NCBI GenBank assembly: GCA_043228905.1
Contig: JBHGNT010000002.1
Span: forward strand, 8,866,001-8,930,000
Source: Azolla caroliniana
Taxonomy: Eukaryota; Plantae; Polypodiophyta
Direction: 5' to 3'
Length of the DNA stretch: 64,000 nt
Shown here one piece after another: positions 1 to 63,500 of this stretch. Each line of letters opens with the position of its first letter. Within the stretch, counting starts at the first letter, position 1. The notes under the pieces were generated by a model, which saw only the letters and a list, made by a program, of their open reading frames with translations, was not told the DNA's origin and ran no database searches. The position numbers and the translations under genes were made by a program.

Positions 1-3000
1 AAATTTGCTCAAGCTCATAAGATATCCCTAAGAAAACTCCAGTGTCCAGCCTTTGTAGTAGTCATTCATGGACGTCCCATTGCTTCCGGAAATATCATAG
101 AAGAGTCAGAGCCCCTTAATATTGTCCTAGATAACTTAGCATGTGTGGTATCATTTAATATTATTAGTATCCCAGAACATCCTATAGTTTTAGGATAACT
201 GTGGTTCAAGTTACATAACCCAGACATAAATTGGAGAACAAGAGAAATCCGGTGTCGACAAACCCAAGGGTCAACTCAGAAGATGGCAACCATTTCGATA
301 CGTCAGTTGCGTAAAGAAGGGCGCAAGGAGGAAATGTTCCTCTTTGCAATATCAGTAAACCCCTCCAGCACCACTAAAGAAGAATCCACCGTTCAACTTC
401 CCGAGAAGTATCGTCATTACGCCGATGTGTTCGATAAAGTACAAGCCAACACACTTCCTCATCATCGACCGTACGATTGCCTCATCGATTTACAACCAGA
501 AAAAGAGCCGCCATGGGGACCGATCTACAATTTGTCACCAACCGAGTTGGAAGTCCTTCGGGCCTATATAGAGGAGAATTTGGAAAATGGTTTCATTCGG
601 CATTCGAAATCTCCAACCAGCGCGCCCATTTTCTTCGTCAAAAAAAAAGATGGATCGCTTTGTCTCGTTGTAGATTACCGTGGCTTGAATAAGGTTACAA
701 TCAGGAATAGGTATGCTCTTCCCCTTATCTCAAGTCTTTTAGAACGGATCAATGGTGCCAGGTTCTTCACGAAGATCAACTTACGGGGGGAGCATATAAC
801 CTCGTACGGATCCGACCAGGAGACAAATGGAAGACCGCGTTTCGCACCACATATGGACACTTCGAGTATACGGTCATGCCGTTCGGCCTCACTAATGCGC
901 CGACAGTCTTCCAACACATGGCTAATGATATATTCCGAGATCTATTGGATGATTGTTTGATCATCTATTTGGATGATCTACTGGTTTATTCAAAGACACA
1001 AGAAGAACATGATTCTCATGTCCTATTAGTACTAAAACGACTTCGAGAACATGGTCTGTATGCAAAGCTCGAAAAATGTAGTTTCGGGTGCAACCAAGTG
1101 GAATTTCTTGGCTACATCATTTCGTCAGAAGGCATCTCCATGGACCCAGCTAAGGTCAAAACGGTGGTAGAATGGCAGACTCCGCGTTCGGTGCGGGATG
1201 TGCAATGCTTCTTAGGCTTTGCCAATTTTTACCGGAAGTTCATACAAGATTACTCAAAGATCGTTCTACCTCTCACACAACTTACCAAGAAGGGACAACC
1301 GTTCATCTGGTCTGAAGAAACGGACATGGCTTTCGAGAGTCTTAAAAAGGCATTTACATCGGCTCCAATTCTAGCTCATGTCGATTCGGAAAAACCATTC
1401 ATCATCGAAGCTGACGCATCGGATTTTGCATTGTGGAGCATTTTGTCACAACAGGGGAATGATGAGAGGCTACATCCTGTGGCTTTTCACTCACGCAAGT
1501 TTGACGCCGCCGAAATCAACTACGAAATTCATGATAAGGAGCTATTGGCAATAGTGGATTCTTTTATGCAATGGAGGCATTTTCTGGAGGGATCCTCTCA
1601 TCCAGTCACCGTATTTAGTGACCACAAGAATCTTGCCTACTTTTAGGATGCTCGTGTGTTGAATCGACGTCAAGCTCGGTGGGCCCACTTCCTCATGCGT
1701 TTCGACTTCAAAATTACATATCGTCCGGGGAGGCACCAAGGGAAGGAAGATACATTATCACGGCATTCGTATCTAGCACCCCGTCCCGGCGAGCCAGCTT
1801 TCGATAACCAAAAACAAGTCATCTTGGGACTGGCACGACTACAAGCAACACAGATCTTTGACATGCCTATGGATTCCCGCGTTATCGATACCATACGTGA
1901 AGACTTGAAGACAGATGCGTTCGCCCAAGCTATACTAGCACAAATTGATCCCTCTCGAGCGTCGTGTTCACAATCGCAACCACCAGGTACAGACTATCGG
2001 CAATTCAAATACCATGATGGATTACTCTTCTTTAAATAACTTTTGTATATTCCTAATGGTTCTTGCCGCCTTCGAGTAGTACAAAACTGTCATGACACAT
2101 ATACAACTGGGCATTTTGGCAGTACTAAAACATTACATTTAGTACAACGAACATTCTGGTGGTCCTGTATGTGACAATTTGTCGAGGATTTTGTTCAGAC
2201 TTGTGATACATGTTGCAGAGCGAAAAAGCCAAGGCATCATCCATATGGTTTAGTAGAACCATTACCAATTCCAAGCAAGCCGTGGCAATCCATTGCTCTA
2301 GACTTCATCACAGATCTTCCAGTCTCTAAGGGGTTCAATGCGATTCTAACGGTGGTCAATCGATATACGAAGATGGCTCATTTCTTGCCATGTACGAAGG
2401 AGATCTCCAGTGAAGACACTGCCGAAATTGTCATGCGTGAAGTATGTCGGCATCATGGACTTCCCGATAGTATCATCAGCGACCGTGGACCCCAGTTCGT
2501 GTCAAAATTCTGGAAGCACCTTTTTAACATGCTCAAGGTCACTTGTAACCTCTCCTCCGGCTACCACCCACAAACTGACGGCCAAGCTGAACGAACAAAT
2601 CAAACGTTGGAGTAGTATCTGCGGTGCTTTCTCAGCTATCATCAAGATGACCGGGCAGATATTCTCCACTTCACCGAATTTGCCTATAACAACTCTATCC
2701 ACGCATCCACTAAAGTTACGCCATTTTATGCTTATACGGGATGTCACCCCCGGTGGAGTGTACTTGAAACCCCAGAGGTGTCCACAAATGCGTGCGTGGA
2801 GGATCGTTTGGAGCAGTTACGCAAGATACAAGTGGATTTATCTACTCATCTCCAGCAAGCTCAACAAACACACAAGGTCTATGCGGATCGTCATTGACTT
2901 CCATCCAGTTTTAATATTGGAGATCGGGTGTGGCTGCTACGACGACACATCAAGACTACTCGTCCATGTGAGAAGTTAGATTATCGGCGATTAGGTCCTT

Positions 3001-3388
3001 TCCGTATTATTGGATAGATTAATGATGTCGCTTTTCGTCTCGATCTACCTCCTCAACTTCGGATACATCCGGTGTTTCATAGTTCTCTCCTCCAACCCTA
3101 CCACGAGAGCACCATCCCAGGACGTCTTATCCAACCTCCACCCCCGATCGAGCTTGAAGATGGGCCGGAGTACGAGGTTGCCGCCATCCTTGATTCCAAG
3201 ATTGTTCGCAACAAGCTCTACTATCTAGTCGATTGGCTAGGCTATACCCCAACGAACGTACTTGGGAACCGATCGAGAATGTGACCAATGCTCGTGCTCT
3301 TCTTGAAGACTTCCATCGTCAATATCCACACAAACCAGGTCCTCAATCCAAGACGACTCGTGACACTCGTCGTTTTAAAGGGGGGATA
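1..3388 (+). pseudogene. Gypsy pol (protease end, RT, RNase H, integrase, chromodomain), broken by frameshifts and stops
   Basis: ORF pieces 283-960, 876-1646, 1656-2039, 2352-2615 and 3072-3284 are collinear pol fragments. Confidence 0.93.
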
Positions 3389-3389
3389 G

Positions 3390-3693
3390 TGTCATGATAT
3401 GGCAAGACTCGAACCCATGACTTTAGGTTATATGGGTCCAGCTCTTGACCATTAGATCATCTATTGTAATACGTAGGATATTATTTTCATTTACAATTTA
3501 TTATAGGAAATTAGTGTATATTCCAGATTTCTCTAGAACATTCTAGAAGCTTCAGGATTACTCCTGAAAACACTATAAAAGAGGGCACTAGGCATTATGT
3601 TGAACCAAATTGGTTCAACGACAGACTTAAGCCTTTTAGCCACCATTGTATATTCTCTTCATATAATACATATCTTTCTTATCATCACACACA

Positions 3694-3758
<65 letters not shown>

Positions 3759-3857
3759 GCTCACTTCTTCCTTCTCTCGAAGAAGTTCCACACCTCTCAT
3801 AGTACTAATCCTTCGTTTAGTACTAATTCCTTCTCTGTCTCAGTACTGTTCATGACA
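3390..3857 (+). repeat. 3' LTR of the Tcn1-like element (468 bp), with a (CT)n tract at about 3696-3752
   Basis: 8-bp terminal inverted repeats directly after the PPT; TATAAAA at about 3574; homologous to the reverse complement of 56961-57415. Confidence 0.93.
3397..3466 (-). promoter_or_regulatory. tRNA-like Pol III promoter (A-box + B-box) inside the LTR U3, antisense to the element
   Basis: Minus strand reads AGA-TGATCTAATGG-TCAAGAGCTGGACCCATATAACCTAAAGTCATG-GGTTCGAGTCT-TGCC, with tRNA-like box spacing. Confidence 0.6.
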
Positions 3858-19300: not shown

Positions 19301-19888
19301 TTGAGCACTCCATATGGAGTGTTGTTTTACCACAAACCAAATCTCTCACATCTTGCAGAATTCCATGCCACTCCCTGTAATCATATTCTACAAGAAAAGG
19401 GAACAAAATAAGGTCCACCTGCTAGAAAACATACTTTTATTGGTTACGGAGAATAAACCAAAAATAAAACTTACAAATTATTTTATCCCAGACAAGGCAA
19501 TTTCTATCAAGTTGATATGTCATATTTGATGAGGAGGCCATATTGTGAAAATATGCACTCTATGTGTGAAACAAGTGCGGGACACTCAAGAACTTGAACC
19601 AAAGAGGATGGGATTAGTTTGAATTGTTGATGTCAGAGTGCTCGAAACATTTCACCTTCAACACTTGCTTTTTGGGGAATGTTTATTTCTTATAGTATTC
19701 TCGGGTGCAGTGTATTACATGATTGTGTGTGCTCGCGAAGATGTCATCTACAAAAGTTGAGGCACAACTCTGACAATAGTAGTTGCAAGTGTGAGGTTGG
19801 CGATGGTAGGTCACAGTGTCAACAATGTCTCATATTGTTGCAGCAAGATTAAGCCCTTTCCTCTATCAAGAGGAAAGCTTCAGTCACA

Positions 19889-20070
19889 AGCTTTGCTTGA
19901 AGCTTGAGGAAATGCCCCTTTCCTCATGACTTCGAGAAAAAGGGAAGGTCGAGACATGAGCTTTGCTTGACGCTTGAGGAAATGCCCCTTTCCTCATGAC
20001 TTCGAGAAAAAGGGAAGGTCGAGACATGAGCTTTCCTTGAAGCTCGAGGAAAGGCCCCTTTCCACATGGT
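19889..20070. repeat. 70-bp tandem repeat, about 2.6 copies
   Basis: Unit AGCTTTGCTTGAAGCTTGAGGAAATGCCCC...GAGACATG starts at 19889, 19959 and 20029. Confidence 0.85.
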
Positions 20071-20489
20071 TTGAAGGAAAACACTGGAAGTTCGAAACAC
20101 AACCTTTCCTTGAAACTCAAGGGAAGGCCCACTTCCATCTAGTTTGGAGGAAACGATCGACGAAGATTTCCTTGAAGCAAGGGTCAAGGCCCATCTTCAA
20201 GAAAATAAATTGACTAATATTGTAAATTTGGCCGAGTCTTCACTTCTTCTAACTTCGTTCGATGGCCAGGACACTGGCCTCAATCAACATGGCGGATTCG
20301 ACATATTCGTTTTAATCATAACTTTTTGCTTGGTGGTTTGAATCGTGTTCTGAAAATCCCTTCACAAACCTTGTCTTGGTGTGATGAATTCTTTCGTGAG
20401 AGATTCCAAAATCCATTTTTCATTGAATTTGAGATAAATCTCACGTAACTTCACATATTGTGCTCAAATTTCTAAGTCGAAAAATCTAT

Positions 20490-20663: not shown

Positions 20664-21761
20664 TTCAAGAAGAGTCATATGCCTCTCCTAAAGCTTCTTC
20701 AAAGGACCCCCCTGTTGTATTTTGTTGTCGTATCTTGTAGATTCTTTCTTGTAACTCATCCATGGCTACCCGACTGAAGGATATCACTTGCAATCCTTCC
20801 AGTATCCCACATCGCCTCATCTCCGCTTTGTAGTCACGTATATAGCATGACACATCATTTCCGTTGAATTGCCCGTTTCGTTGCACAAGCCGCTCTACTG
20901 CCGACTTCATCTCTGACATCGCACGTTGCTCTTGTTGCATCCGCTCAATCATCATCATCATCATGTTCATCGCCTCTTGTTGATTTTCCATCTCCTTGCC
21001 ACCCGTTTTCACGTCGGGTTCACCACTTGTGTCGTGCCTCTCAGCTCCGGATCGTTTACGTGAGTCGGGTGGGAACCGTTGAGGTTATGGACTAGGAAGA
21101 GGAAGAATTTGAGATAAGGCTAGTAATGAATAGATTATTAGAAAGAGAGATAGAAATTTCGTGAATCCCACGAGTGTATTGTATTCGATTAATCAATATT
21201 TAGATAAGAATATGTATTTAGATTGAAAGAAAGAGATAAAAGAACTTGTGAATCCCACAAGTATAGATTATTAATTGGTGTTTTAGGAAATATATCCAAT
21301 TTCCAAATATTTTTCACACCATTACATTGTGCTCCTCATCCTTATATAGAGATGAGAGAGTCTTTTCTAACCCATGCGTTTTCTCTAATTATAGACTCCA
21401 TGCTTTTCCTATATGCTTTATCTAAAGTGATTATGCTTTTTCTAACTTGTGCGTTTTTTATCAACTATAGTGTTCATGCACGCTAGATGTGCATGCGTAG
21501 CTTTTTCTTTTAGCATGCGTTTTTCTTTTAACTAAAGTTTATCCTACGTGAACTTACGTTTTTTATGTGTGACATCTACTTTTTAACATGAATGAAATGC
21601 TAGTGTAATGGTAAGACATTACATTATTAACATGGAGGTCCAAGGTTCGAATCTTGGCCTATGCATGTTATATATATTTTAATATTTTCTACTATTTATT
21701 CATATTTATTAAATCGGTACTTTATAAGTTTTTCACGTAGTGTACGAAATACACTACGACA
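20664..21761 (-). mobile_element. Phygy-like non-chromovirus Gypsy: 5' LTR, tRNA-Trp PBS and truncated gag
   Basis: LTR 21030-21761 (TGTCGTAG...GCACGACA on minus); plus-strand TCACGTCGGGTTCACCA 21009-21025 equals the plant tRNA-Trp 3' end; gag-like ORF 20665-21012 (FNGNDVSCYIRDYKAEM). Confidence 0.85.
21594..21664 (+). promoter_or_regulatory. tRNA-like cassette (A-box, partial cloverleaf, B-box) in the Phygy-like LTR U3, antisense to the element
   Basis: TAGTGTAATGG 21601-21611; D-stem GTGT/ACAT; 7-nt loop in TACAT/ATGGA stem; AGGTC; CCAAGGTTCGAATCTTGG; TTTT run at 21677-21680. Confidence 0.65.
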
Positions 21762-27413: not shown

Positions 27414-28833
27414 TGTCGCAAAGTTTTGCGCGCATGTGTTACTTGGGCAGGACCACGGGGGTCTTGGACTAGGGAGTACTCAAGGGATAGATAATTATTT
27501 ATTTATTTATTTTAAATCTTATAAATATAAAGCACTCTTCGAACCCACACTACGAATCCTCTCTACGAACTCACTCTACGAACTCTCTCTACGAATCCTC
27601 TCTACGAACCCACTCTACGAACTCTCTCTACGAACCCACTCTACGAACTCTCTCTACGAATCCTCTCTAGAACCCACTCTATGAACCCTCTCCGAGCAAG
27701 GGCTTGTTGCCCTTTGTTTTGTGAGTTTGGTGGCTTTCGTTGATCACGACTCGTCGACCTTTCGAGATCACCGCACCAACCAAGTGATCAAACAAGTACA
27801 AGCAAAGATGATCGTGCAAGATGAATGCACAAGGGGACAATAACACAAACACGAATGCCCATACGCCTTTATGAGGAGGAGAGGTGCATGGGCATGCCCG
27901 AAACGCTCCCTCGTCACAAGACGGCCGAACGTACAAGGAAGACACGGACGAAGAAAGAAAGAAAGAAGAAAGAAACATGAATGATATCGGCCAAAGAAAT
28001 AAATACGTGTTCGATTCCAACGCTAGAGGACCCTTTATAAAATAGGGTTTGATTACAATGGCAACTTCTAGTCAACCACAAGCTCAATCAAAACATAAAT
28101 ACTAAATGACCTTAGAGACAAGAGCAAAACCGAACACGGCGAAGATGAACACACGAGCACCACCAAAATGCCAACCCCAATGAACCACGACCACCCGAAC
28201 GGCGAGCACATGGGCTCGCAACGACGAACGGAGCGAAGCAACGTCGAACCAACGAAGCTTGGGCTCACAAGCACTTCAAGTGCCAACGCGAAGAAGACGA
28301 ACACGTGGCGATGAGGGGATGAAGGGGTATGAAGAGATGAAGAGAAGTGGTGAAGAAGAAGATGAAGAGCTCCGAAGGAAAAATGGCGATAGTCTCCTCC
28401 TCCCAAAACGTCCTCCCCCCAAAATGAGCCCCCCTTGACCTCCTTTTATAGGAAATAAAAAGGGGGGGTCGCCAATTTTTTCTTGAATGCAAAAGGAATA
28501 AAATTCCTTAAATCACACTACATTGTAAGACCATATTTGAACCGTGCACCTCTAGCTAGAGGTCAATGTGACTATCTACTAACCCATTAACTCTATTATA
28601 TATAATATATAATTTTATCTCTACAAATTCATAGCTTGTCTCCCTTCTACCTTTTATTTCTCCTCTCTCTTACTTTTTACACGAGCTTCTATACATCCTT
28701 TCCACCCTTTCTTTTTCCTTTTAATTTGCATATGCACAATTAATCGTCTTTGTGTGCACACACATTGCACATGCACATTTTGACCCCCCCTTTCGCTAGT
28801 TTTTCCCACTCTCGAGCACACCATATCACGACA
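27414..28833 (-). mobile_element. Solo LTR (1.42 kb, Gypsy-type) inserted in Copia RNase H
   Basis: TGTCG...CGACA termini; splits YAKGA|VSWQ; 4-bp TSD ACGG/ATGG; minus-strand TATAAAAGG near 28450 gives the orientation. Confidence 0.8.
27537..27692. repeat. 13-bp minisatellite (CTACGAAyyywCT) x ~12 inside the solo LTR
   Basis: Directly visible head-to-tail units CTACGAATCCTCT, CTACGAACTCACT, CTACGAACTCTCT, CTACGAACCCACT. Confidence 0.9.
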
Positions 28834-31800: not shown

Positions 31801-33469
31801 GTACCTCATCGGCTAGAGGTACTTCCAACGAGATTTTTTGATTTATAAGCCCTTGGAAGGCATTCATGTGGTCCGCCATACTAGAGCCGTCTTGGTATCA
31901 GAGTCTCACTAATTTCCGGAATATTGAAACCTGATTCACAACATTCTTGTTTTGAAACATGATGCATATCTTCTCCTAGAGTTCATGAGCCTTACTCTCT
32001 TCGTTGAAGTTGTTGTACAGGCTCATATCGATGAAGCATCGAATGTAGGCTATTGTCTTCATGTGCATCACCTCCTAGGTTGGCGCATCTATTTTGTCTG
32101 GTTTTGCATCTCCAAACTGTACTGGTAGCCAGAGATCTTTGACCACCAATATATTAACCTTCTCTTTTAGAATGAACCGCCACGTTGTTTTCCCTTTATA
32201 TCTTATTCTTCCCAAGGAACCTTTGGTGGGAGAAAAATGTTGTTCATCCCATTCATCCAACCTTATCATTCTGAAAATAAGCTCTTACCAGTTGAGCTAT
32301 GTCTTTTTGTTGTCTTGAGCCTCACCTTGTAGGATGTCTTAGTCATCCCTTCATCTAAACCTGGGATCTTCACCCATTCATAAACCAAAGGTTTTGAAGC
32401 ATTTCTTCCCATGAGCACACCATACCACTACATCTATCTTGTCAAATTGTAGTTCATGCAAAGTTACAAAACATTCTCATAAGATATTAATGCAAAATCT
32501 GATGCCTTTGGATACATTGCATGCATAGAGTACAAATGCTCTATTACCGAAGAAAGAGCAACAAAGCTTGATGAGAATGGAACAATTGAAAATGAAGTGT
32601 CACATTACCTTCCCCATGCAAATCAGGTGCCAACTATCACAATGCAAATCAATGATGTGAAGATGACAAAGGTGGGTATATAGACAATGAACAGGATTGA
32701 CAACGACCTATATATCAAAGTGTAATTTAAGTAAATTAGAATCTTAATGAATTCCGACTTGTACATCAAGGTGGACAATGACCAATATAATCCAATAGTC
32801 ATATGCAAGATTTTGATGATTCATTACCCAATATTGTCAATCTGCAAGATATGGTAGATTGCAACCTATGCCAACATGACAACTTCAATTTGCACAAATG
32901 AATGGGTGCCACACTTCACATTCCAACAACTATCCTCTTTTTTCCAATAGCCGACGACTTGCATAAATTTATGAACGAGGCATTGCATAGTTTGATGAAT
33001 AACGATCATCCTTTCTGACAAAATAGTTACCACCATTGTCACTAGATGCTTATAACGATAGCTTGACTCTCGAGTGCCTATTTTGAGTCTACAACAAAAT
33101 TTTCAAAGATTTCAAATCTTGGTGCTTCATCAAAATTAAACCTCAATAATGAAGAGGTGTATTTCCAACCATTACCAACATCAGAAAGAAAATTTGAAAC
33201 CATAAGAATATTTAAAAACACTTATGAACATATCAAAATGATTGAACCAATGAAGCTTTAATGGTTTATGTAGAAAATAATGATATTGCGCATGAAACTT
33301 TTGATGTTTATTTTTTAGGTTTTGATGTTTATATTTAAGTAAGACACATCATAAATTTCTTATCTAATTCTTATTTTTTAAATTAAACAAAACATATTTC
33401 GTAATTGGTGTAGTGATTATGTGTGTGTTAATGTTAGTTTAACAAAAGAAGCCTTTTAGGCTTCTAGGG

Positions 33470-43996: not shown

Positions 43997-45262
43997 TTAT
44001 AACCTAATGGTGTGGGGCATGGTAGGCATGAGTTCAAGCAAGGATGCGGAGATGTTCCTTGCCGCGAGGCGGGTGTCAAGCGACGCGGCACTCTGTGCAA
44101 TAGCGACAGCTTTTACAAGGGCATTATGTTGGTATGCGTCACTTTTAACCTTGTCCGAGTCTGGGGAAGATTTGATAAGGAACCAAAGGATGTTAACCGC
44201 GAGGTAACTCGAATGTTCCGAGACACCACTCATGTGTTTAACAACAAGGTCTACATGAGAGCTCGTCGCTGCACGACCCTCCGCACAATGACATACCATC
44301 TCAAGGACCCTTAGGCCCAATTCCATGGTATGCTTATCCAAACTTCCACCCTTGAGAAGCCGGACGATCGATGCCACAACTTGCGCTTCTACGGCTAATA
44401 TCCTGTTCTTATTACAAGACTTGCAAAGCTCGAGGATGAGGCTCAATCCTACGCTTTTGATAGCACAACCCCCATCTTTGATGATCTCCACCAAGCTTTC
44501 CATGAAACCTTGCATCCCGCCGATCTTCCGCTTCATCACATCAGTCAATTGCAACCTCGCAAGGATCCTAACCGACACTTGCCTCGTCTCGGGCCTAGCC
44601 CGATTGGTGATGGACGCAAGGGAAGTGACCAATTCTTCGGACGCGTTCACATTATCCTCGTGTTCGGTCAAGAGATCGAGGAGACGCAAGGATTGGTCGA
44701 TGACGGCCACATTGCTCCAAGGTGTGAGGGTGTTGCCACCTAGGGCCATCGAGGCAGACAACATCATCATCATGGTAGTAGTCGAGCTACACGATTTTGA
44801 GAGGAGCTTACCCAATTGGGCTAACAAGCCCGATTGGATCATCTGATTCCGGAGGCGAGGCCGGAGGAGCAAGAGCTTGGTGAGCTTCTGGATGGAGTCT
44901 CCGGGGTCCGAGGTGCGGTCGCAGATGGCATCTACGAGGGCCGGGATCTCCTTGGTGGACGCGGGCTGGCGAGGGGTCACGATCCGCTGGATCCCCAGGC
45001 TTTGGTTTTGTTCGCACCACGATTGGATCATTCGGCGGAGGATATGGTTAGGGATGGGATCGAGCTCCTCGTCCGCATTGAGCGGGAGCCGGGTCACGGG
45101 GCATGTGTTGTGGCCTTCGTCCAGCCATTTCTCGATGCTTTGCCGATCGAATGTCTGGCCTGAGCTAAGCGTGACCGGATCCCGCATGAGCTCCAGTGAG
45201 ATCGGGCACACGAAGTAGGACGGCACCGGGACTTGGACATGGAGGTGGGGTTTCACTGACAT
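43997..45262 (-). CDS. Plant U-box (PUB) E3 ubiquitin ligase with ARM-like C-terminus, intronless, 421 aa (CMPG1/PUB20-26-like class)
   Basis: U-box PSYFVCPISLELMRDPVTLSSGQTFDRQSIEKW..NTCPVT..PNHILRRMIQSWC; RIVTPRQP; C-terminal LEMVCHCAEGRAA and AVNILW; uninterrupted ORF. Confidence 0.95.
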   Translation of the reverse strand: MSVKPHLHVQVPVPSYFVCPISLELMRDPVTLSSGQTFDRQSIEKWLDEGHNTCPVTRLPLNADEELDPIPNHILRRMIQSWCEQNQSLGIQRIVTPRQPASTKEIPALVDAICDRTSDPGDSIQKLTKLLLLRPRLRNQMIQSGLLAQLGKLLSKSCSSTTTMMMMLSASMALGGNTLTPWSNVAVIDQSLRLLDLLTEHEDNVNASEELVTSLASITNRARPETRQVSVRILARLQLTDVMKRKIGGMQGFMESLVEIIKDGGCAIKSVGLSLILELCKSCNKNRILAVEAQVVASIVRLLKGGSLDKHTMELGLRVLEMVCHCAEGRAATSSHVDLVVKHMSGVSEHSSYLAVNILWFLIKSSPDSDKVKSDAYQHNALVKAVAIAQSAASLDTRLAARNISASLLELMPTMPHTIRL

Positions 45263-45634
45263 GGCAAGAATTTCTAGGTCTAAAACAAGGGGGGGTTTCC
45301 TTGGACGGAAAAGATTTAGGGCTTGGGACTTCTAGCAAAGAAAGAAAGAAAGAAAACTTCCTAGAGTTTGGGTTTCTTAACACAGAAAGTTGTAGATGAG
45401 GGGGGGTGTTTAGAGTTCTGGGTTTCTAAAGGTAACTTTCTGAAGCAGAGAGGAAAAGAAGAAGGGAACAGAGGAAGTTAGGGTTAAGAGAGTTTGTGAA
45501 ACAGAGGATTTAGGGTTGGAGTTTTGGAAACAGGGGAAGAAGAAGAATTGGGGATGAGGAGGAGGAGGCAGAGAATTGAATGAAAGGAAATGAATTTGTT
45601 AAAAGGTTAGGTTAGGAAAGAAAGGAAGGATTGG

Positions 45635-56960: not shown

Positions 56961-59900
56961 TGTCAGGAATAGTACTAAAGCAGAGATGGAATTCGTACTA
57001 AGAAGAGCAGTACTATTAGTACTAAGAGGACGGGACTGCGTAAGATTCCTGAGAGAGGAAGTGAGAAGAGGAGAGAGAGAGAGAGAGAGAGATAGCGAGG
57101 ATGAGAGAGAGAGAAAGATGATGACAACAACTAATATATTATGTGAAAAGATAAGTACAAAGCGGCTGAGAGGCTTAAGACTGGTGTTGAACCGATTTGG
57201 TTCAACATAATGCCTAGTGCCTTCTTTTATAGTGTTGTCAGGAGTAATCCTGAAACTTCTAGAATGTTCCAGAGAAATCTGGAATATACATTACTTTCTT
57301 ATAATAAAACATAAATGAAAATAATATCCTATGAATTACAATAGATGGTGTGATGGTTAAGAGCTCGACCCATATACCATAAGGTCATGGGTTTGAGTCT
57401 TGCCATCTCATGACACTATCTCCCCCTTAAAGACGACGAGTGGAACGAGTCGACGTTGATTGCGGACCGGGTTTGTCCGGATACTTTCGGTGGAAATCAG
57501 CAAGAGATCCTGAGCATTGGCAACATGCTCGACATGTTCCCAAGTGCGTTCACTCGGACTATAACAAACCCAATCGACCAAATAATAAAGTTTGTTGCGA
57601 ATAAGTTTGGAATCGAGGATGGCAGCAACTTCATACTCCGGGCCGACATCCAACTCCAGTGGGGGCGGCGGTGGTGTAACATGATCGGGAATGGTGTTTG
57701 CTTTATGAGGTTTAAGAAGAGAACAATGGAAAACCGGATGTATCTGAAGCTGCGGAGGGAGATCAAGGCGGAATGTGACATCATTAACTTTACCAGTAAT
57801 AAGGAAAGGACCGAGTCGTCGATAATCCAACTTGTCGCACGGTCGAGTAGTCTTGATGTGACGATGTAAGAGCCATACTCGATCTCTGATGGCAAAAGAG
57901 GAGGGAAGCCGATGACGATCCGCGTATGTCTTCTTTGTCTGTTGAGCATGACGAAGATGAGTCGAGAGATCTGTCTGGATCTTGCGTAGTCTCTCCAAAT
58001 GATCCTCGGCACGAGGATTGGTAGGTAGCTCCGGGGTGTCGATCACCGACTAGCGAGGATGAGAACCGGTATAAGCGTAGAATGGGGAGACTCGAGTCGA
58101 GGAGTGAACAATGTTATTATACGCAAACTCCGCAAAGTGGAGAATCTCGGCCCAATCGTCTTGTTGATAACTCAGGAAACACCGGAGATATTGCTCCAGC
58201 GTTTGGTTTGTTCATTCTGCCTGCCCATCGGTCTGAGGATGGTAGCCGGAGGAGAGGTTGCAAGAGACCTTGAGCATCTTGAAGAGATGCTGCCAAAATT
58301 TGGAGACAAATTGCGGTCCTCGGTCACTGATGATACTGTCTGGGAGGCCATGATGCCGAAATGCCTCACGCATGACTAGGGCGGCGGTTTCCTCGCTAGT
58401 GATGGCCTTTATACACGGAACAAAAACTGGCATCTTCGTATATCGATCGACGACGGTTAAGATAGCATTGAACCCCTGCGAGACCGGCAGATCTGTGATA
58501 AAATCAAGACAAATAGATTGCCACGGCTTACTTGGAATCGGTAAGGGTTCCAACAAGCCATATGGATGGTGTCGTGGCATCTTTGCTCGGCAGCAAGCAT
58601 CACAGGTCCGAACGTAGTCGTCGACAAAACGATGCATGTGGGGCCACCAAAAAGATTGCTGCACTAGCTCCAACATCTTAGTACTACCGAAATGTCCCGC
58701 CGTATGGGTGTCGTGACAATGCTGGACGATTTGAAGGTGACAGGAGCAATCGGGGACATATACGCGCTTTTTAAAGAATAACAAACCATCATGATATTCG
58801 AATTGTCGGTAGTCAATACCTGGTTGTTGAGACTGAGAACAGGATGCCCGAGAAGTATCAATGTGCGCCAAGATGTTTTGAGCAAAACTATCCATCTTCA
58901 AGTTTGCACGTATGTCATCGGTAATCCGTGAATCCATCGGGGTGTGAAAAATCTGCGTTGTGTGAAAAATCCGCATCGTGTGCAATTGTGTTGGTCCCAA
59001 GATTACTTGCTTTTGATTATCAAATGTTGGATCACCAGGACGAGGTGCAAGATATGAACGCCGTGATAGTGCATCTGCTTTTCCTTGCTGCTTCCCTGGT
59101 CGATATGTGATTTTGAAGTCGAAACGCGTGAGGAATTGCGCCCACCGAGCTTGCCGTCGATTTAGTACGCGAGCATTCTGGAAATAAGCAAGATTTTTAT
59201 GATCACTAAAGACAACGACCTGATGTGGAGAGCCCTCTAAGAAATGCCGCTATTGCACAAATGAATCCACGATGGCTAATAACTCCTTGTCATGTATTTC
59301 GTAGTTGATTTCCGCAACATCGAATTTGCGCGAATGGAAAGCCACCGGATGCAACTCTTCTTTATCTCCTTGTTGAGAAAGGATGCTACCAAGGGCGAAA
59401 TCTGAAGCATCGGCCTCCATGATTAATGGTTTGCTAGTATCCACATGAGCTAGAATCGGTGCTGATGTAAAGGCTTTCTTAAGATGCCGAAAAGCCATAT
59501 CTGCTTCAATGGACCAAATAAATGCTTGGCCCTTCTTCGTAAGTTGTGTGAGGGGTAAGATAATCTTCGAGTAATCATGTATAAACTTACGGTAGAAGTT
59601 AGCAAAACCTAGAAAACATTGTACATCTCGTACTGACCGTGGAATTTGCTACTCTAGTACAGTTTGGACTTTTGCTGGATCCATGGCGATGCCCTTTGAG
59701 GAGATGACGTAGCCTAGAAATTCCACTTGCTTGCAGTCAAAGCTACATTTTTCTAGCTTGGCATAAAGACCATTCTCGCGGAGTCGCTTTAGTACTAATA
59801 GTACATGAGAATCGTGCTCTTGCTGGGTCTTCGAATAAATCAATAGATCATCAAGATAGATGATCAAACAGATATCCAAGAGGTCTCTGAATATATCATT

Positions 59901-60177
59901 TGCCATGTGTTGGAAGACTGCGGGTGCATTGGTTAGGCCGAACGACATAACAATATACTCGAAATGCCCATACCGCGTGCGAAAGGCGGTCTTCCATTCA
60001 TCTCCCAGTCGGATCCGCACGAGGTTATACGCTCCTCGTAGATCGATTTTGGTAAAAAACTTGGCACCATTAACTCGCTCCAAAAGACTTGATATAAGAG
60101 GAAGTGCATACCTATTCCGGATGGTGACCTTATTCAATCCGCGGTAATCAACGACCAGACGAAGTGATCCATCTTTC
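56961..60177 (-). mobile_element. Ty3/Gypsy chromovirus (Tcn1-like), 3' part; same family as 1-3857; RT interrupted by Copia
   Basis: 3' LTR 56961-57415; PPT AAGGGGGAGATAG 57416-57428; chromodomain, INT (58212-59000), RH, RT YLDD; cut at K|KDGSL. Confidence 0.95.
57339..57408 (+). promoter_or_regulatory. tRNA-like A-box/B-box cassette in the second Tcn1-like LTR, antisense to the element
   Basis: TGGTGTGATGG 57346-57356 ... AAGGTCATG-GGTTTGAGTCT-TGCCATCT; AGATGG/CCATCT can close a stem. Confidence 0.55.
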
Positions 60178-60444
60178 TGTTGGGAGACAGGTCCCTCCGG
60201 ATGGTGCAGACCCGGTGAGAACTGGATGAGGAGTACCCGACTACGGAGAGCCGGATGGTGCAGACCCGGTGAGGAATGCTCACCGGATGAAGAGACATAT
60301 TTGTAAATATGTTTCTGAGAGTCCATCGTGGCTACATTTGTAAATAGCCGAAAAGTCATATTAGTATAAATATGACTTAGGCAAACTTTTAGTTGTTATT
60401 GTTATTCTTGTTGGTGCAAGAAGAAGATAGAGCGCGTAACAGTG

Positions 60445-60525
<81 letters not shown>

Positions 60526-63500
60526 CGTTGCCTCTGTTGTAACCGCCGCCTGTGGCGAAGATCGTGAGCACGAGGTCGTTGCCTCCGTGAACTCACTGTT
60601 GTACATTCTAACATAGTGATAGTTTACAGTTTGTGGGCTGCCGTGGTTTTTCCCTTAGTTTGGGTTTTCCACGTAAACATCCTACGTACTCGTCTCCTCT
60701 TCGTATCGTTCATTATTTCCCGTTTTCTGTGTATGATTCTAAGCTCAGTTGTGGCCGAGCGTTGTGCATAAGGAGCGTTGAGCTCCCGTCAAGTGGTATC
60801 AGAGCGAAACGACACAGAAAATGGACGAATCGTTAGGAGGCATGTTCAAGCTCACCGGCTCCAACTATTCGGTGTGGAAGTCGAAGATGAGGGACATGCT
60901 CGTGGTTAAAGACCTCTGGCTGCCGGTTCAGTTCGGGGACAAGAGACCGGACAAAATCAACGCCACGATATGGGAGGTGATGCACATGAAGACAACGGCG
61001 TACATACGGTGCTTCATCGACATGAGCCTGTACAACAACTTCAATGAGGAGAGCAAGGCTCATGAGCTCTGGGAGAAGATCAACATAATGTTTCGAAACG
61101 AAAATGCTGTTAATCAGGTTTCCGTATTCCGGAAGCTAGTAAGACTCCGGTACCAAGATGGCTCCAGCATGGCGGAGCACATGAATGCCTTCCAGGGGCT
61201 GATCCACCAGGCAACATCATTGGAAGTACCTCTCGCCGACGAGGTACTAGCGCTACTCCTGCTCGGTTCCCTCCCGGATAGCTGGGAGACGTTGGTTGTC
61301 ACTTTGGGCAACGCCGGGCCGGAAGGAAAGCGGTTATCCCTAGCAAGAGTAAAGTCGAGCTTGCTAGATGAGGAGGTGCGTCGGAAAGATAAAGATACGA
61401 GCTCCGACTCCAAAGCGCTCCTTACTGAATCGGAACGCGGAAGACAGAGAAATTGTAGTCCCCAGAACCGGGAGAAGTCGGGGACACGGTCAAAGTCAAG
61501 GGGGAGGCCTACTTGCTTCTATTGCGGCAAGCCAGGACACTTCCAAAAGAACTGTCGGCATTTCTGTAAAGACAAGGAAATCGACGGTACCGATTCGAAG
61601 CGGACCCCGGACCAGAACGGTAAAGACCGGAGGGGAACGGACCGGAAGGGAACGATGGCAATCGCGGCAAGTGAAGAAGAGTTGATGCTCATCACCGAGG
61701 AGAGTGAGATAAACCTTGCCGGCGACGAGATGACCTGGGTGGTAGACTCTGGAGCATCGTTCCACCTTACCCCGGACCGGAAATGCTTCTCATCCTACTC
61801 AGCCGGTGATCACGGCTGTGTCCGGATGGGGAATGAACGTACATGCCGAATTGTCGGCATAGGAGACGTGTGGCTGTCAACACCAACCGGATGCAAGTTG
61901 CTGCTGAAGGATGTCCGACACGTTCCGGAGGTTCATCTGAACCTGATATCAGCCGGTCGGCTAGATGATGAAGGCTACACGGGTAGCATTCGGAACGGTG
62001 TCATGAAGTTCAGCAAAGGGAGCCTGATTGTGGCTCGGGCCCGGAAGGTCAACACACTGTACCTGATGAATGCCCGGTTATGTCCGGAAGAAGTGAACGT
62101 GGCATCCGACACTGCCGGTGAGCTGTGGCACAAGAGGCTATGTCATATGAGCGAGAAGGGGATGAAGAGGCTTGCAGACGACAACCTCATTCCAGTGAAG
62201 AACGTGCACTTGGAGAAGTGCAATGATTGCCTGGCCGGTAAGCAAAACCGGACCTCCTTCCGACCAAGGACACCGATGAGACGTAATGCACCACTGGAGT
62301 TGGTGCATACAGATGTGTGTCAATTAGACACGAAGTCACATGCCGGAGCACAGTATTTCGTGACGTTCATAGATGAGCACAGCCGGAAGCTGTGGGCCAC
62401 ACCGTTGAAGACGAAGGATCAGGTGCTATCCGTCTTCAAAGAGCTCCACGTGAGAGTGGAAAGAGAAACCGGCCGGAAGCTAAAGGCGGATCGAGCAGAT
62501 AACGGAGGAGAATACCGGGGGCAGTTCGAGGAGTACTGCCGCTCGAAGGGAATCCGGCTCGAATTTACCGTGCCGAAGATGCCGGAACTAAACGGACTGG
62601 CCGAGAGGATGAACCGGACCATAATGGAGAGGGTCTAGAGTATGCTAGCGCATGCAAAATTACCCAAGAAGTTTTGGGCTGAGGCATTGTCGACGGCGAC
62701 ATATGTGATAAATAGATCACCCTCAGTACCCTTGGACGCAGACACGCCACAGAGAGTATGGACCGGTAAGGAAGTATCCTACCGGCATCTGAAGGTGTTC
62801 GGGTGTCTCGCGTACGTGCATGTAGCTAAGGACCGGAGAGGAAAGTTAGATCCAAAGACCCGGCCATGCATCTTCCTCGGTTACGGTGCCGATGAGTTCA
62901 GCTACCGAGTGTGGGACCTGGTTGACAAGAAGGTATTCCGGAGTCGAGATATTATCTTCATAGAGGACAAGACACTCGCCGACTAGGAGTCGGAGAAGAA
63001 GATAATGAACCCCGAGTCGACCGGTAAGGATCGACTCTATGATGAGCAGAAGTAGAGGAAGCTAAAACCGGAACCGGCCAAGACCCCGAATCGGATTCGG
63101 ATGAAGAGCAAATAGAGGAGCCGGTTACCGAAGCCCAAAGACAGAGATATCCTCTCAGAGAGAGAAGGCCCCCCCGGAGATTTCCGGATGCAGAGCATGT
63201 TCTGCCGACCGATGAGGGGAGCCAGAAAGCTTCGAAGAAGCGAAGGATGACACCCACAACCGCAAATGGTTAAGTGCCATGCAGGACGAGATGGATTCCC
63301 TGCATGAGAACCATACGTACGAATTGGTGGAGTTGCCGAAAGGAAAGCGGGCACTCCGAAACAAGTGGGTGTACAAGTTGAAACTGGGAGATGCTGGCAA
63401 CCCCCCGAGATACAAAGCCAGGATCGTGGTGAAGGGGTTCCAGCAGAAAAAGGGCGTGGACTTTGACGAGATATTTGCCCCGGTAGTAAAGATGACCTCC

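What the first reader, a model, noticed from the sequence alone, without database searches (positions are those of the whole stretch)
3390..3470. Tcn1-like chromovirus LTRs carry an antisense tRNA-like Pol III promoter at the U3 tip
Seen: within ~75 bp of the LTR start, the opposite strand reads CAA-TAGA-TG(A/G)T(C/G)T(A/G)ATGG (A-box)...CCCATATA..AGTC/GGTC-ATG-GGTT(C/T)GAGTCT (B-box) with tRNA spacing. It occurs in both independent copies (3397-3466 minus, 57339-57408 plus), so it belongs to the element rather than being a later SINE insertion. An AT-rich stretch and CAA precede it, as in plant tRNA genes. Established: Cassandra TRIMs carry 5S-derived Pol III promoters in their LTRs, and TFIIIC-bound B-boxes can act as chromatin barriers. 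Inference: this may be a tRNA-derived LTR module that fires outward from the 5' LTR and antisense over the PPT/chromodomain from the 3' LTR, or that insulates the LTR from heterochromatin.
Basis: partly seen in the sequence, partly recalled or inferred. Interest (0 to 1): 0.78.

Follow-up and report, generated by a model that had tools for sequence, protein, structure and literature searches.

The report
Backwards tRNA promoter in retrotransposon LTRs
The end repeats of an abundant jumping gene, likely from a fern, carry a back-to-front tRNA-derived stretch, two other repeat families from the same material carry one too, and it likely acts as a docking site for the tRNA-gene transcription machinery beside the element's own promoter, though no binding or transcript has been shown.

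Summary
Both 3' LTRs (3390-3857 plus; 57415-56961 minus) of a Tcn1-type chromovirus, host likely a fern, carry an antisense tRNA-like module at LTR nt 12-70 in tRNA register. An A/B-box scan gives 3 hits in the window against 0.27 by chance. The module sits at the same place in 63 of 67 fetched loci. It is not a tRNA: no Rfam or ARAGORN call, no cloverleaf; it folds as a 20-bp hairpin. The third hit (21601-21659) lies antisense in the U3 of an unrelated gypsy LTR, and a further chromovirus LTR (L012) has one without the hairpin. Between these families the box arms are the only alignable LTR sequence. Against a working promoter: the A-box is no better conserved than the rest of U3, 16 of 48 copies break it, both window copies are imperfect, there is no terminator, and no usable RNA data. 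Best reading: a selected TFIIIC/Pol III-type cis-element (0.5); rivals are hairpin function and passive relic. Closest known: Helenus TRIMs (sense, non-autonomous). This scan noted similar modules before in fungal LTRs.

The parts
3390..3857 (+). 3' LTR of chromovirus copy 1 (468 bp, TG...CA)
   Evidence: follows the PPT and the integrase-chromodomain region
3377..3386 (+). Polypurine tract of copy 1
   Evidence: sequence
3401..3466 (-). tRNA-derived module, copy 1 (tRNA positions about 1-66), antisense to the element
3449..3459 (-). A-box, copy 1 (G10>A against the consensus)
3406..3415 (-). B-box, copy 1 (matches the 10-nt consensus pattern)
3399..3452 (.). 20-bp imperfect hairpin overlapping the B-box and the 3' half of the A-box; folds on both strands
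   Evidence: z -3.3 antisense, -2.2 sense; 95.7% of 700 cells paired, 0 compensatory changes
3496..3505 (-). TATA-like A/T run about 30-39 nt upstream of tRNA position 1; candidate TFIIIB site (inferred)
   Evidence: column counts; AT-rich context makes this weak
3574..3580 (+). Pol II TATA box of the LTR (inferred from position and conservation)
   Evidence: 0 of 8 sites with shared variants
3599..3619 (+). Palindrome at the predicted R start; its 3' half is complementary to the sequence after the LTR in L039 and L048 (self-priming, predicted)
56961..57415 (-). 3' LTR of chromovirus copy 2 (455 bp)
57339..57404 (+). tRNA-derived module, copy 2 (A-box 57346-57356 with A14>G; B-box 57390-57399 with C56>T)
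57441..58049 (-). Integrase C-terminus, SH3 and chromodomain of copy 2; aromatic-cage residues read by eye
21030..21761 (-). 5' LTR (732 bp) of a second, unrelated gypsy-like family, followed by a TGG-type primer site (21025-21010) and a gag start
21601..21659 (+). Second tRNA-derived module, antisense in the U3 of the 732-bp LTR (A-box 21601-21611, B-box 21644-21653); best tRNA hit in the window
   Evidence: 20.8 bits; 21.0 bits, E 0.0003

Best explanation
The LTR carries an antisense tRNA-derived sequence whose A and B boxes are likely kept by selection as a TFIIIC/Pol III-type binding site, and it likely works on local chromatin next to the LTR's own Pol II promoter rather than by making a defined small RNA. 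Shown: position, orientation, tRNA register, presence across the family, recurrence in two other LTR families, and lack of a dedicated terminator. Inferred: a tRNA gene or tRNA-SINE head was captured into U3 once or several times; TFIIIC binds the B-box about 160 bp upstream of the Pol II TATA; TFIIIB would load on the AT-rich stretch between the two; this would keep the LTR promoter open in the silent chromatin that a chromodomain integrase is thought to target. Any Pol III transcript would run outward from 5' and solo LTRs and antisense over PPT and chromodomain from 3' LTRs, with variable length. In this family the module was also remodelled into a hairpin.
For: Between LTR families, the only alignable LTR segments are the B-box arm for family 1 vs L012 (18-20 nt) and for the 21761 family vs L012 (22 nt), and the A-box for L048 vs the 21761 family (17 nt). 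All are antisense, in U3, at A-B spacing 43-45. The L012 module has no hairpin (z +0.7), so the boxes and not the fold are the shared feature. All 3 A+B pairs in the window lie in LTR U3, antisense. In family 1 the 4 degenerate A-box columns carry 16 changes and the 5 diagnostic ones 7 (binomial P 0.013, post hoc), and 8 of 10 internal-branch changes stay inside the consensus. The B-box C56>T break occurs on terminal branches in 5 of 5 events. Contig depth peaks over the B-box arm (about 528,000 against 170,000-194,000 over 3434-3472 in run X3). Precedents: Cassandra and Helenus (PMC10886601), and Pol III units in foamy virus LTRs whose box mutants lose expression (PMC3993851).
Against: The A-box is no more conserved than the rest of U3, and its unpaired 5' part is more variable (P 0.03-0.04). 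16 of 48 copies break the A-box, including two subfamilies that spread (T8>A in 8 copies, G10>A in 3 plus collapsed contig L039). 10 of the 16 degenerate-site changes are in one column. The B-box lies inside the hairpin and next to the integrase end, so its conservation has other possible causes, and my metagenome set was selected on that arm. The two other copies of the 21761 family (L026, L057) and the one copy of a fourth family (L052) have decayed boxes. The Selaginella SM-Tcn1 LTR shows no such module by eye. No terminator: first T4 is 58-1378 nt away at 8 of 9 3' LTRs, none within 605 nt in the ninth, and median 152 nt at 58 other LTRs. No transcript or binding data.
Confidence: 0.5

Rival explanations
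1. Passive relic. A tRNA-derived SINE inserted into ancestral LTRs and is copied along with U3. It looks conserved because the whole U3 is conserved among young subfamilies, and recurrence reflects how often such SINEs land in LTRs.
For: A-box not more conserved than U3; two subfamilies spread with broken A-boxes; decayed boxes in L026, L057 and L052; two similar modules in the sense orientation in 1 of 11 more distant elements (L191); Kojima notes that not a few Repbase LTRs hold tRNA-like parts.
Against: Family 1 and the L012 family share nothing else alignable in their LTRs; the same orientation and region recur in three families; B-box breaks are terminal in 5 of 5 events.
Confidence: 0.23
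2. In this family the selected feature is the hairpin at the U3 tip, acting in the genomic RNA just after the PPT (stability, packaging, plus-strand initiation or small-RNA processing); the boxes survive because they lie in or beside the stem.
For: z -2.2 to -6.5 on both strands in the 2 window copies and 4 fetched copies folded; 95.7% of cells paired; distal arm has 4 internal vs 27 terminal changes against 30 vs 67 in U3 nt 71-127 (Fisher P 0.06); variation concentrates in the loop and outside the stem; the tRNA T-stem and anticodon stem were lost in favour of this stem.
Against: 0 compensatory changes, though one arm was fixed by my search pattern; the distal arm is not significantly more conserved than U3 by permutation (P 0.30); the L012 module has no hairpin and the 21601 module folds into two different ones.
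Confidence: 0.2
3. The sense RNA carries the complement of a tRNA, so a host tRNA anneals to U3 and helps strand transfer, as titled for HIV-1 U3-R and as recalled for the bipartite primer site of Ty3.
For: The orientation is what such annealing needs; the HIV-1 precedent was seen only as a reference title.
Against: Family 1 is predicted to self-prime and has no tRNA primer site; the hairpin would sequester the site; the module does not end in a full acceptor strand plus CCA; no host tRNA set was available to show a close match.
Confidence: 0.07

Closest known systems
Helenus TRIMs (TRIMp3; Kojima 2024, PMC10886601; parts 1-4 of 6 of the text and supplement passages read)
   Same: tRNA-derived sequence inside an LTR, similarity centred on boxes A and B, unlikely to be a functional tRNA, proposed origin by SINE insertion into an LTR; function not validated there either.
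   Different: Helenus is non-autonomous and 311-1263 bp, and in the supplement entries seen the tRNA part is in the sense orientation as the presumed main promoter. Here it is antisense, points away from the R region, and sits in a pol-coding element with its own TATA box. The paper argues that autonomous partners must use Pol II.
Cassandra TRIMs (5S-derived Pol III promoter in the LTR; as described in PMC10886601)
   Same: Pol III-type internal promoter inside a plant LTR.
   Different: 5S rather than tRNA origin, non-autonomous, and it drives the element's own transcript with promoter and terminator; here there is no terminator and the direction is outward.
Pol III miRNA units in foamy virus LTRs (Kincaid et al. 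2014, PMC3993851; passages read)
   Same: A/B-box units overlapping hairpins inside the LTR of an autonomous retroelement; box mutants lose expression.
   Different: They have a T-run terminator and proven small RNAs; here neither is shown.
tRNA-Lys3 gene-like sequence in HIV-1 U3-R (Piekna-Przybylska et al. 2010; title only, in the reference list of PMC11241228)
   Same: tRNA-like sequence embedded in the 3' LTR region.
   Different: By its title it serves minus-strand transfer of a tRNA-primed virus; this family is predicted to self-prime.
Tcn1 clade chromoviruses (PMC2864245 passages and supplement S3; PMC6317226 passages)
   Same: Class I chromodomain, predicted self-priming, integrase grouping with fungal and vertebrate Tf1/sushi-type proteins, similar LTR-to-gag junction and pre-PPT sequence to SM-Tcn1.
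   Different: Those two papers list plant Tcn1 only from mosses and lycophytes, the passages found mention no tRNA-like LTR part, and the SM-Tcn1 LTR shows none by eye.

Membership tests
Functional tRNA gene | Cloverleaf scoring above a tRNA model threshold | tested here: not met
   ARAGORN 0 genes; no Rfam tRNA hit at E up to 10; own model 12.6 bits for copy 1, copy 2 not listed; best fetched copy 23.3 bits with broken anticodon stem
Type 2 Pol III promoter | A-box and B-box at tRNA spacing | tested here: met
   44 nt T8-G52; 3 pairs vs 0.27 expected; 32 of 48 copies keep a consensus A-box; both window copies have mismatches
Type 2 Pol III promoter | Boxes more conserved than neighbouring sequence | tested here: inconclusive
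   Not met within family 1 for the A-box; met between families; B-box arm biased by the search pattern
Type 2 Pol III promoter | Upstream TATA-like element and CAA at -1 to -10 (plant tRNA genes) | tested here: inconclusive
   TATA-like run at about -39 to -30 in AT-rich DNA; CAA at +1 to +3
Type 2 Pol III promoter | Poly(T) terminator close downstream | tested here: not met
   First T4 at 908 and 1378 nt in the window copies; variable elsewhere
Type 2 Pol III promoter | TFIIIC binding and Pol III transcription | not testable with these tools
   Only contigs were available; 2 low-depth contigs in X23 and 0 in X19
Helenus / TRIMp3 | Non-autonomous and shorter than about 1.3 kb | tested here: not met
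   RT, RNase H, integrase and chromodomain present
Helenus / TRIMp3 | tRNA-derived part in the LTR, sense to the element | tested here: not met
   Present but antisense; sense in the Helenus entries seen
Tcn1 chromovirus | Chromodomain with aromatic cage | tested here: met
   PF00385 E 3e-08; cage residues read by eye from recalled positions
Tcn1 chromovirus | Self-priming site instead of a tRNA primer site | tested here: met
   12-nt complement of the predicted R start follows the LTR in 2 of 2 loci that join LTR to gag (L039, L048; collapsed contigs); a sequence prediction only
Tcn1 chromovirus | Phylogenetic placement with reference Tcn1 elements | tested here: inconclusive
   Integrase tree of 28 rows puts it with fungal and vertebrate Tf1/sushi-type hits, apart from L189-L196 (100/97), but holds no named Tcn1 reference

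The most novel reading that the evidence does not exclude
Autonomous LTR retrotransposons of several lineages have repeatedly captured and kept tRNA-type A/B boxes in U3 as a built-in TFIIIC site: a self-carried insulator or divergent Pol III promoter that protects the LTR promoter in heterochromatin and can send antisense RNA over the PPT and chromodomain. This would be a general, overlooked LTR cis-element, and every solo LTR would spread a Pol III site through the genome.
Probability: 0.3. Interest if true: 0.78.

Novelty: new variant of a known kind. Interest (0 to 1): 0.52.

Why it matters
Pol III promoters in LTRs are described for non-autonomous TRIMs, where they drive the element, and for foamy virus miRNAs. 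An outward-facing one kept in the LTRs of several autonomous plant families would need a different purpose, most simply chromatin control of the LTR promoter. It makes a testable link between heterochromatin-targeting chromoviruses and how they stay expressed, and it predicts many dispersed TFIIIC sites in repeat-rich fern genomes. If it is only a relic, it is still a source of false tRNA and SINE calls in such genomes.

Tried and rejected
No genome is held for this window, so no genome-wide survey was possible. Rfam found no tRNA family on either LTR or on the 91-nt module; its other hits were far below gathering scores. ARAGORN at 80% threshold calls 3393-3460 but among 34 noise-level calls; rejected as evidence. 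blastn of the L011 module against phages gave 9 records, all chance-level, so no tRNA isotype is assigned. Searches for related elements with the integrase end in viral contigs and with RNase H-integrase in genome contigs found none; the alignment search of viral contigs gave 11 distant elements, of which 1 (L191) has modules, in sense. Weak tRNA-like hit at 32227-32306 has an A-box half only and no B-box; rejected. Depletion of Pol III terminators over the last 900 nt before the 3' LTR, which would favour a long antisense transcript: not significant in any of 8 copies (P 0.11-0.74). Joints that skip the module in DNA runs are single contigs of low depth with unknown letters between; not interpreted. 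Absence of variants at 3401-3421 in laid contigs is weak, since one search also missed variants known at 3455-3457. RNA: X23 (RNA is a guess) 2 contigs under 90% alike, X19 none; no conclusion. The fourth family L052 matches a module profile only at E 0.08; kept as a hint. Literature: searches found no paper describing antisense tRNA-type boxes in LTRs of autonomous plant elements; subscription papers are not covered, and five .doc supplements of PMC2864245 could not be read.

Full report
Setting. The window is repeat-rich plant DNA. A U-box/ARM gene at 44000-45331 has ferns (Adiantum, 39-47% identity) as its best named hits, so the host is likely a fern; no genome is held. Two copies of one gypsy family lie at 1-3857 (plus) and about 56961-60250 (minus). 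They carry RT, RNase H, integrase, SH3 and chromodomain. Each ends in a PPT and a 3' LTR (3390-3857; 57415-56961). The family looks Tcn1-type: the integrase groups with fungal and vertebrate Tf1/sushi-type proteins in a 28-row tree without a named Tcn1 reference, and in the 2 loci that join LTR to gag the sequence after the LTR is complementary over 12 nt to the predicted RNA start (L039, L048). Self-priming is what PMC6317226 (passages) predicts for Tcn1. The junctions resemble SM-Tcn1 (supplement of PMC2864245, by eye).

Observation. The motifs are there. On the strand opposite to the element, LTR nt 70-60 read as an A-box and nt 26-17 as a B-box, 44 nt apart. A scan with recalled consensus boxes finds 3 pairs in the window against a mean of 0.27 in 30 shuffles. 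A profile HMM of 339 tRNAs taken from viral contigs ranks the two copies 2nd and 3rd, with 0 of 1000 shuffles as high, and aligns several fetched copies without gaps from model position 7 to 66. These are not plant tRNAs, so scores are conservative and no isotype is assigned. It is not a tRNA: ARAGORN and Rfam find none; a cloverleaf model of 120 tRNAs gives copy 1 12.6 bits and does not list copy 2, no better than the structure-free model (14.3 and 6.2 bits). The best of 34 fetched loci searched, L048, reaches 23.3 bits. Instead nt 10-63 fold as one 20-bp hairpin on either strand.

It belongs to the LTR. A 21-nt pattern over the B-box arm found 67 metagenome loci. 63 are this family (65 matches); 2 are tRNA/SINE-like sequences in unrelated DNA (L003, L055) and 2 are chance (L047, L056). 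The module always sits at the LTR tip, after a PPT in 7 loci and after unrelated flanks in the rest. Some loci are the same site assembled twice, and nearly all come from a few related assemblies. DNA runs of at least four organism labels hold the stretch, and 841-3843 contigs per DNA-like run lay on it.

Selection within the family. Of 67 copies (65 plus 2 window), 60 were distinct and 48 covered the first 80 nt; 34 went into a tree. The A-box is not better conserved than the rest of U3 (minor fraction 0.131 vs 0.088), and its unpaired 5' part is more variable (P 0.03-0.04). 32 of 48 copies keep a consensus A-box; 16 break it, among them two subfamilies and both window copies. The pattern of change is still box-like: 16 events in 4 degenerate columns against 7 in 5 diagnostic ones (P 0.013, post hoc, 10 events in one column), and 8 of 10 internal-branch events stay in consensus. 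The one B-box break that my pattern allowed occurs in 8 of 48 copies and is terminal in 5 of 5 tree events. The B-box arm cannot be judged from these loci since the search fixed it; contig depth peaks there and again at 3525-3550, which is rough support. The hairpin is 95.7% paired with 0 compensatory changes in 35 distinct rows, and its distal arm shows a borderline deficit of internal changes (P 0.06).

The best tRNA hit in the window is 21601-21659. It lies antisense in the U3 of a different 732-bp LTR (21761-21030) that is followed by a TGG-type primer site and a gag start with unnamed homologs, two of 12 carrying PF13352. Two more copies of that LTR have the module at the same place with decayed boxes (L026, L057). 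A third family, seen once at the end of L012 after a near-identical PPT region, has an antisense module at LTR nt 36-100 with an intact B-box, an A-box with one mismatch and no hairpin. A fourth (L052, 49% identity in the integrase end) shows only a faint trace (E 0.08). Between families 1, 2 and 3 the only LTR segments that align are the box arms; family 1 and L052 share a different 20-nt motif. Among 11 more distant elements, L191 has two modules in its LTR, in sense; SM-Tcn1 has none by eye.

Mechanism. The module cannot drive the element's genomic RNA since it faces away from R. It has no terminator: the first T4 lies 58-1378 nt downstream at 8 of 9 3' LTRs and at a median of 152 nt at 58 other LTRs, and terminators are not significantly depleted before the 3' LTR. 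The CAA is at +1 to +3 rather than upstream (PMC11700998, passages). I therefore favour a TFIIIC-type binding site with a chromatin role beside the Pol II promoter (0.5), with read-through transcription possible but secondary. Binding, insulation and transcription are all inferred; TFIIIC barrier activity is recalled knowledge. Rivals: passive SINE relic (0.23), hairpin function (0.2), tRNA annealing (0.07). The laid RNA-labelled runs were contigs and told nothing.

Comparison and novelty. Helenus TRIMs carry tRNA-derived LTR parts, but are non-autonomous and, in the entries seen, sense (PMC10886601). That paper says in passing that not a few Repbase LTRs hold tRNA-like parts, so the bare fact is noted in print. 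Foamy virus LTRs hold proven Pol III units (PMC3993851, passages). Six searches found no description of antisense tRNA-type boxes in LTRs of autonomous plant elements. Unchecked notes of this scan report similar modules in fungal LTRs, one read as a passenger and one as a landing pad. Verdict: real feature, new variant of a known kind, function open; interest 0.52.

Noticed in passing
window 21030-21761 (minus) and 21025-21010: 5' LTR of a second gypsy-like family with its own antisense tRNA-like module, a TGG-type primer site and a gag fragment; inserted at the end of a copia RNase H region.
   Followed up: partly
L012:1900-2444 (minus): 3' LTR of a third, Tcn1-like family with an antisense A/B module, a TATA and an R-start palindrome like family 1 but otherwise unalignable.
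   Followed up: partly
L052:1-800 (minus): Decayed chromovirus of a fourth family; faint module trace at LTR nt 30-90 and a 20-nt TTCTAGAA-containing motif shared with family 1, a candidate conserved U3 enhancer.
   Followed up: partly
L191:4726-5070: LTR of a distant chromovirus (seed-plant type by recall) with two tRNA-like A/B modules in the sense orientation.
   Followed up: partly
L039, L048; window 3599-3619: Predicted self-priming: 12 nt after the LTR are complementary to the R-start palindrome. Tcn1-type elements in a likely fern host; the two papers read list only mosses and lycophytes.
   Followed up: partly
window 3820-3850 and 56965-57030: Three to four AGTACT-containing repeats in U5 just before the LTR end in all full LTRs seen.
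   Followed up: no
L002, L012:1068-1191, L064: LTR tip truncated at nt 86-91 and joined to an inverted piece of nt 54-86; same site in three assemblies.
   Followed up: no
window 60250-62638 and 56960: Nesting: chromovirus copy 2 sits in a copia element and is itself interrupted in RT by another copia element.
   Followed up: no
window 27509-27690 and 19868-20150: Tandem arrays of a 13-bp unit (about 14 copies) and a 70-bp unit (4 copies).
   Followed up: no
window 44000-45331 (minus): U-box/ARM E3 ligase gene, single open frame of 444 codons; best named hits are ferns.
   Followed up: partly
L003:499-573 and L055:1502-1558: tRNA/SINE-like sequences in unrelated metagenome DNA that share the 21-nt B-box arm exactly.
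   Followed up: no
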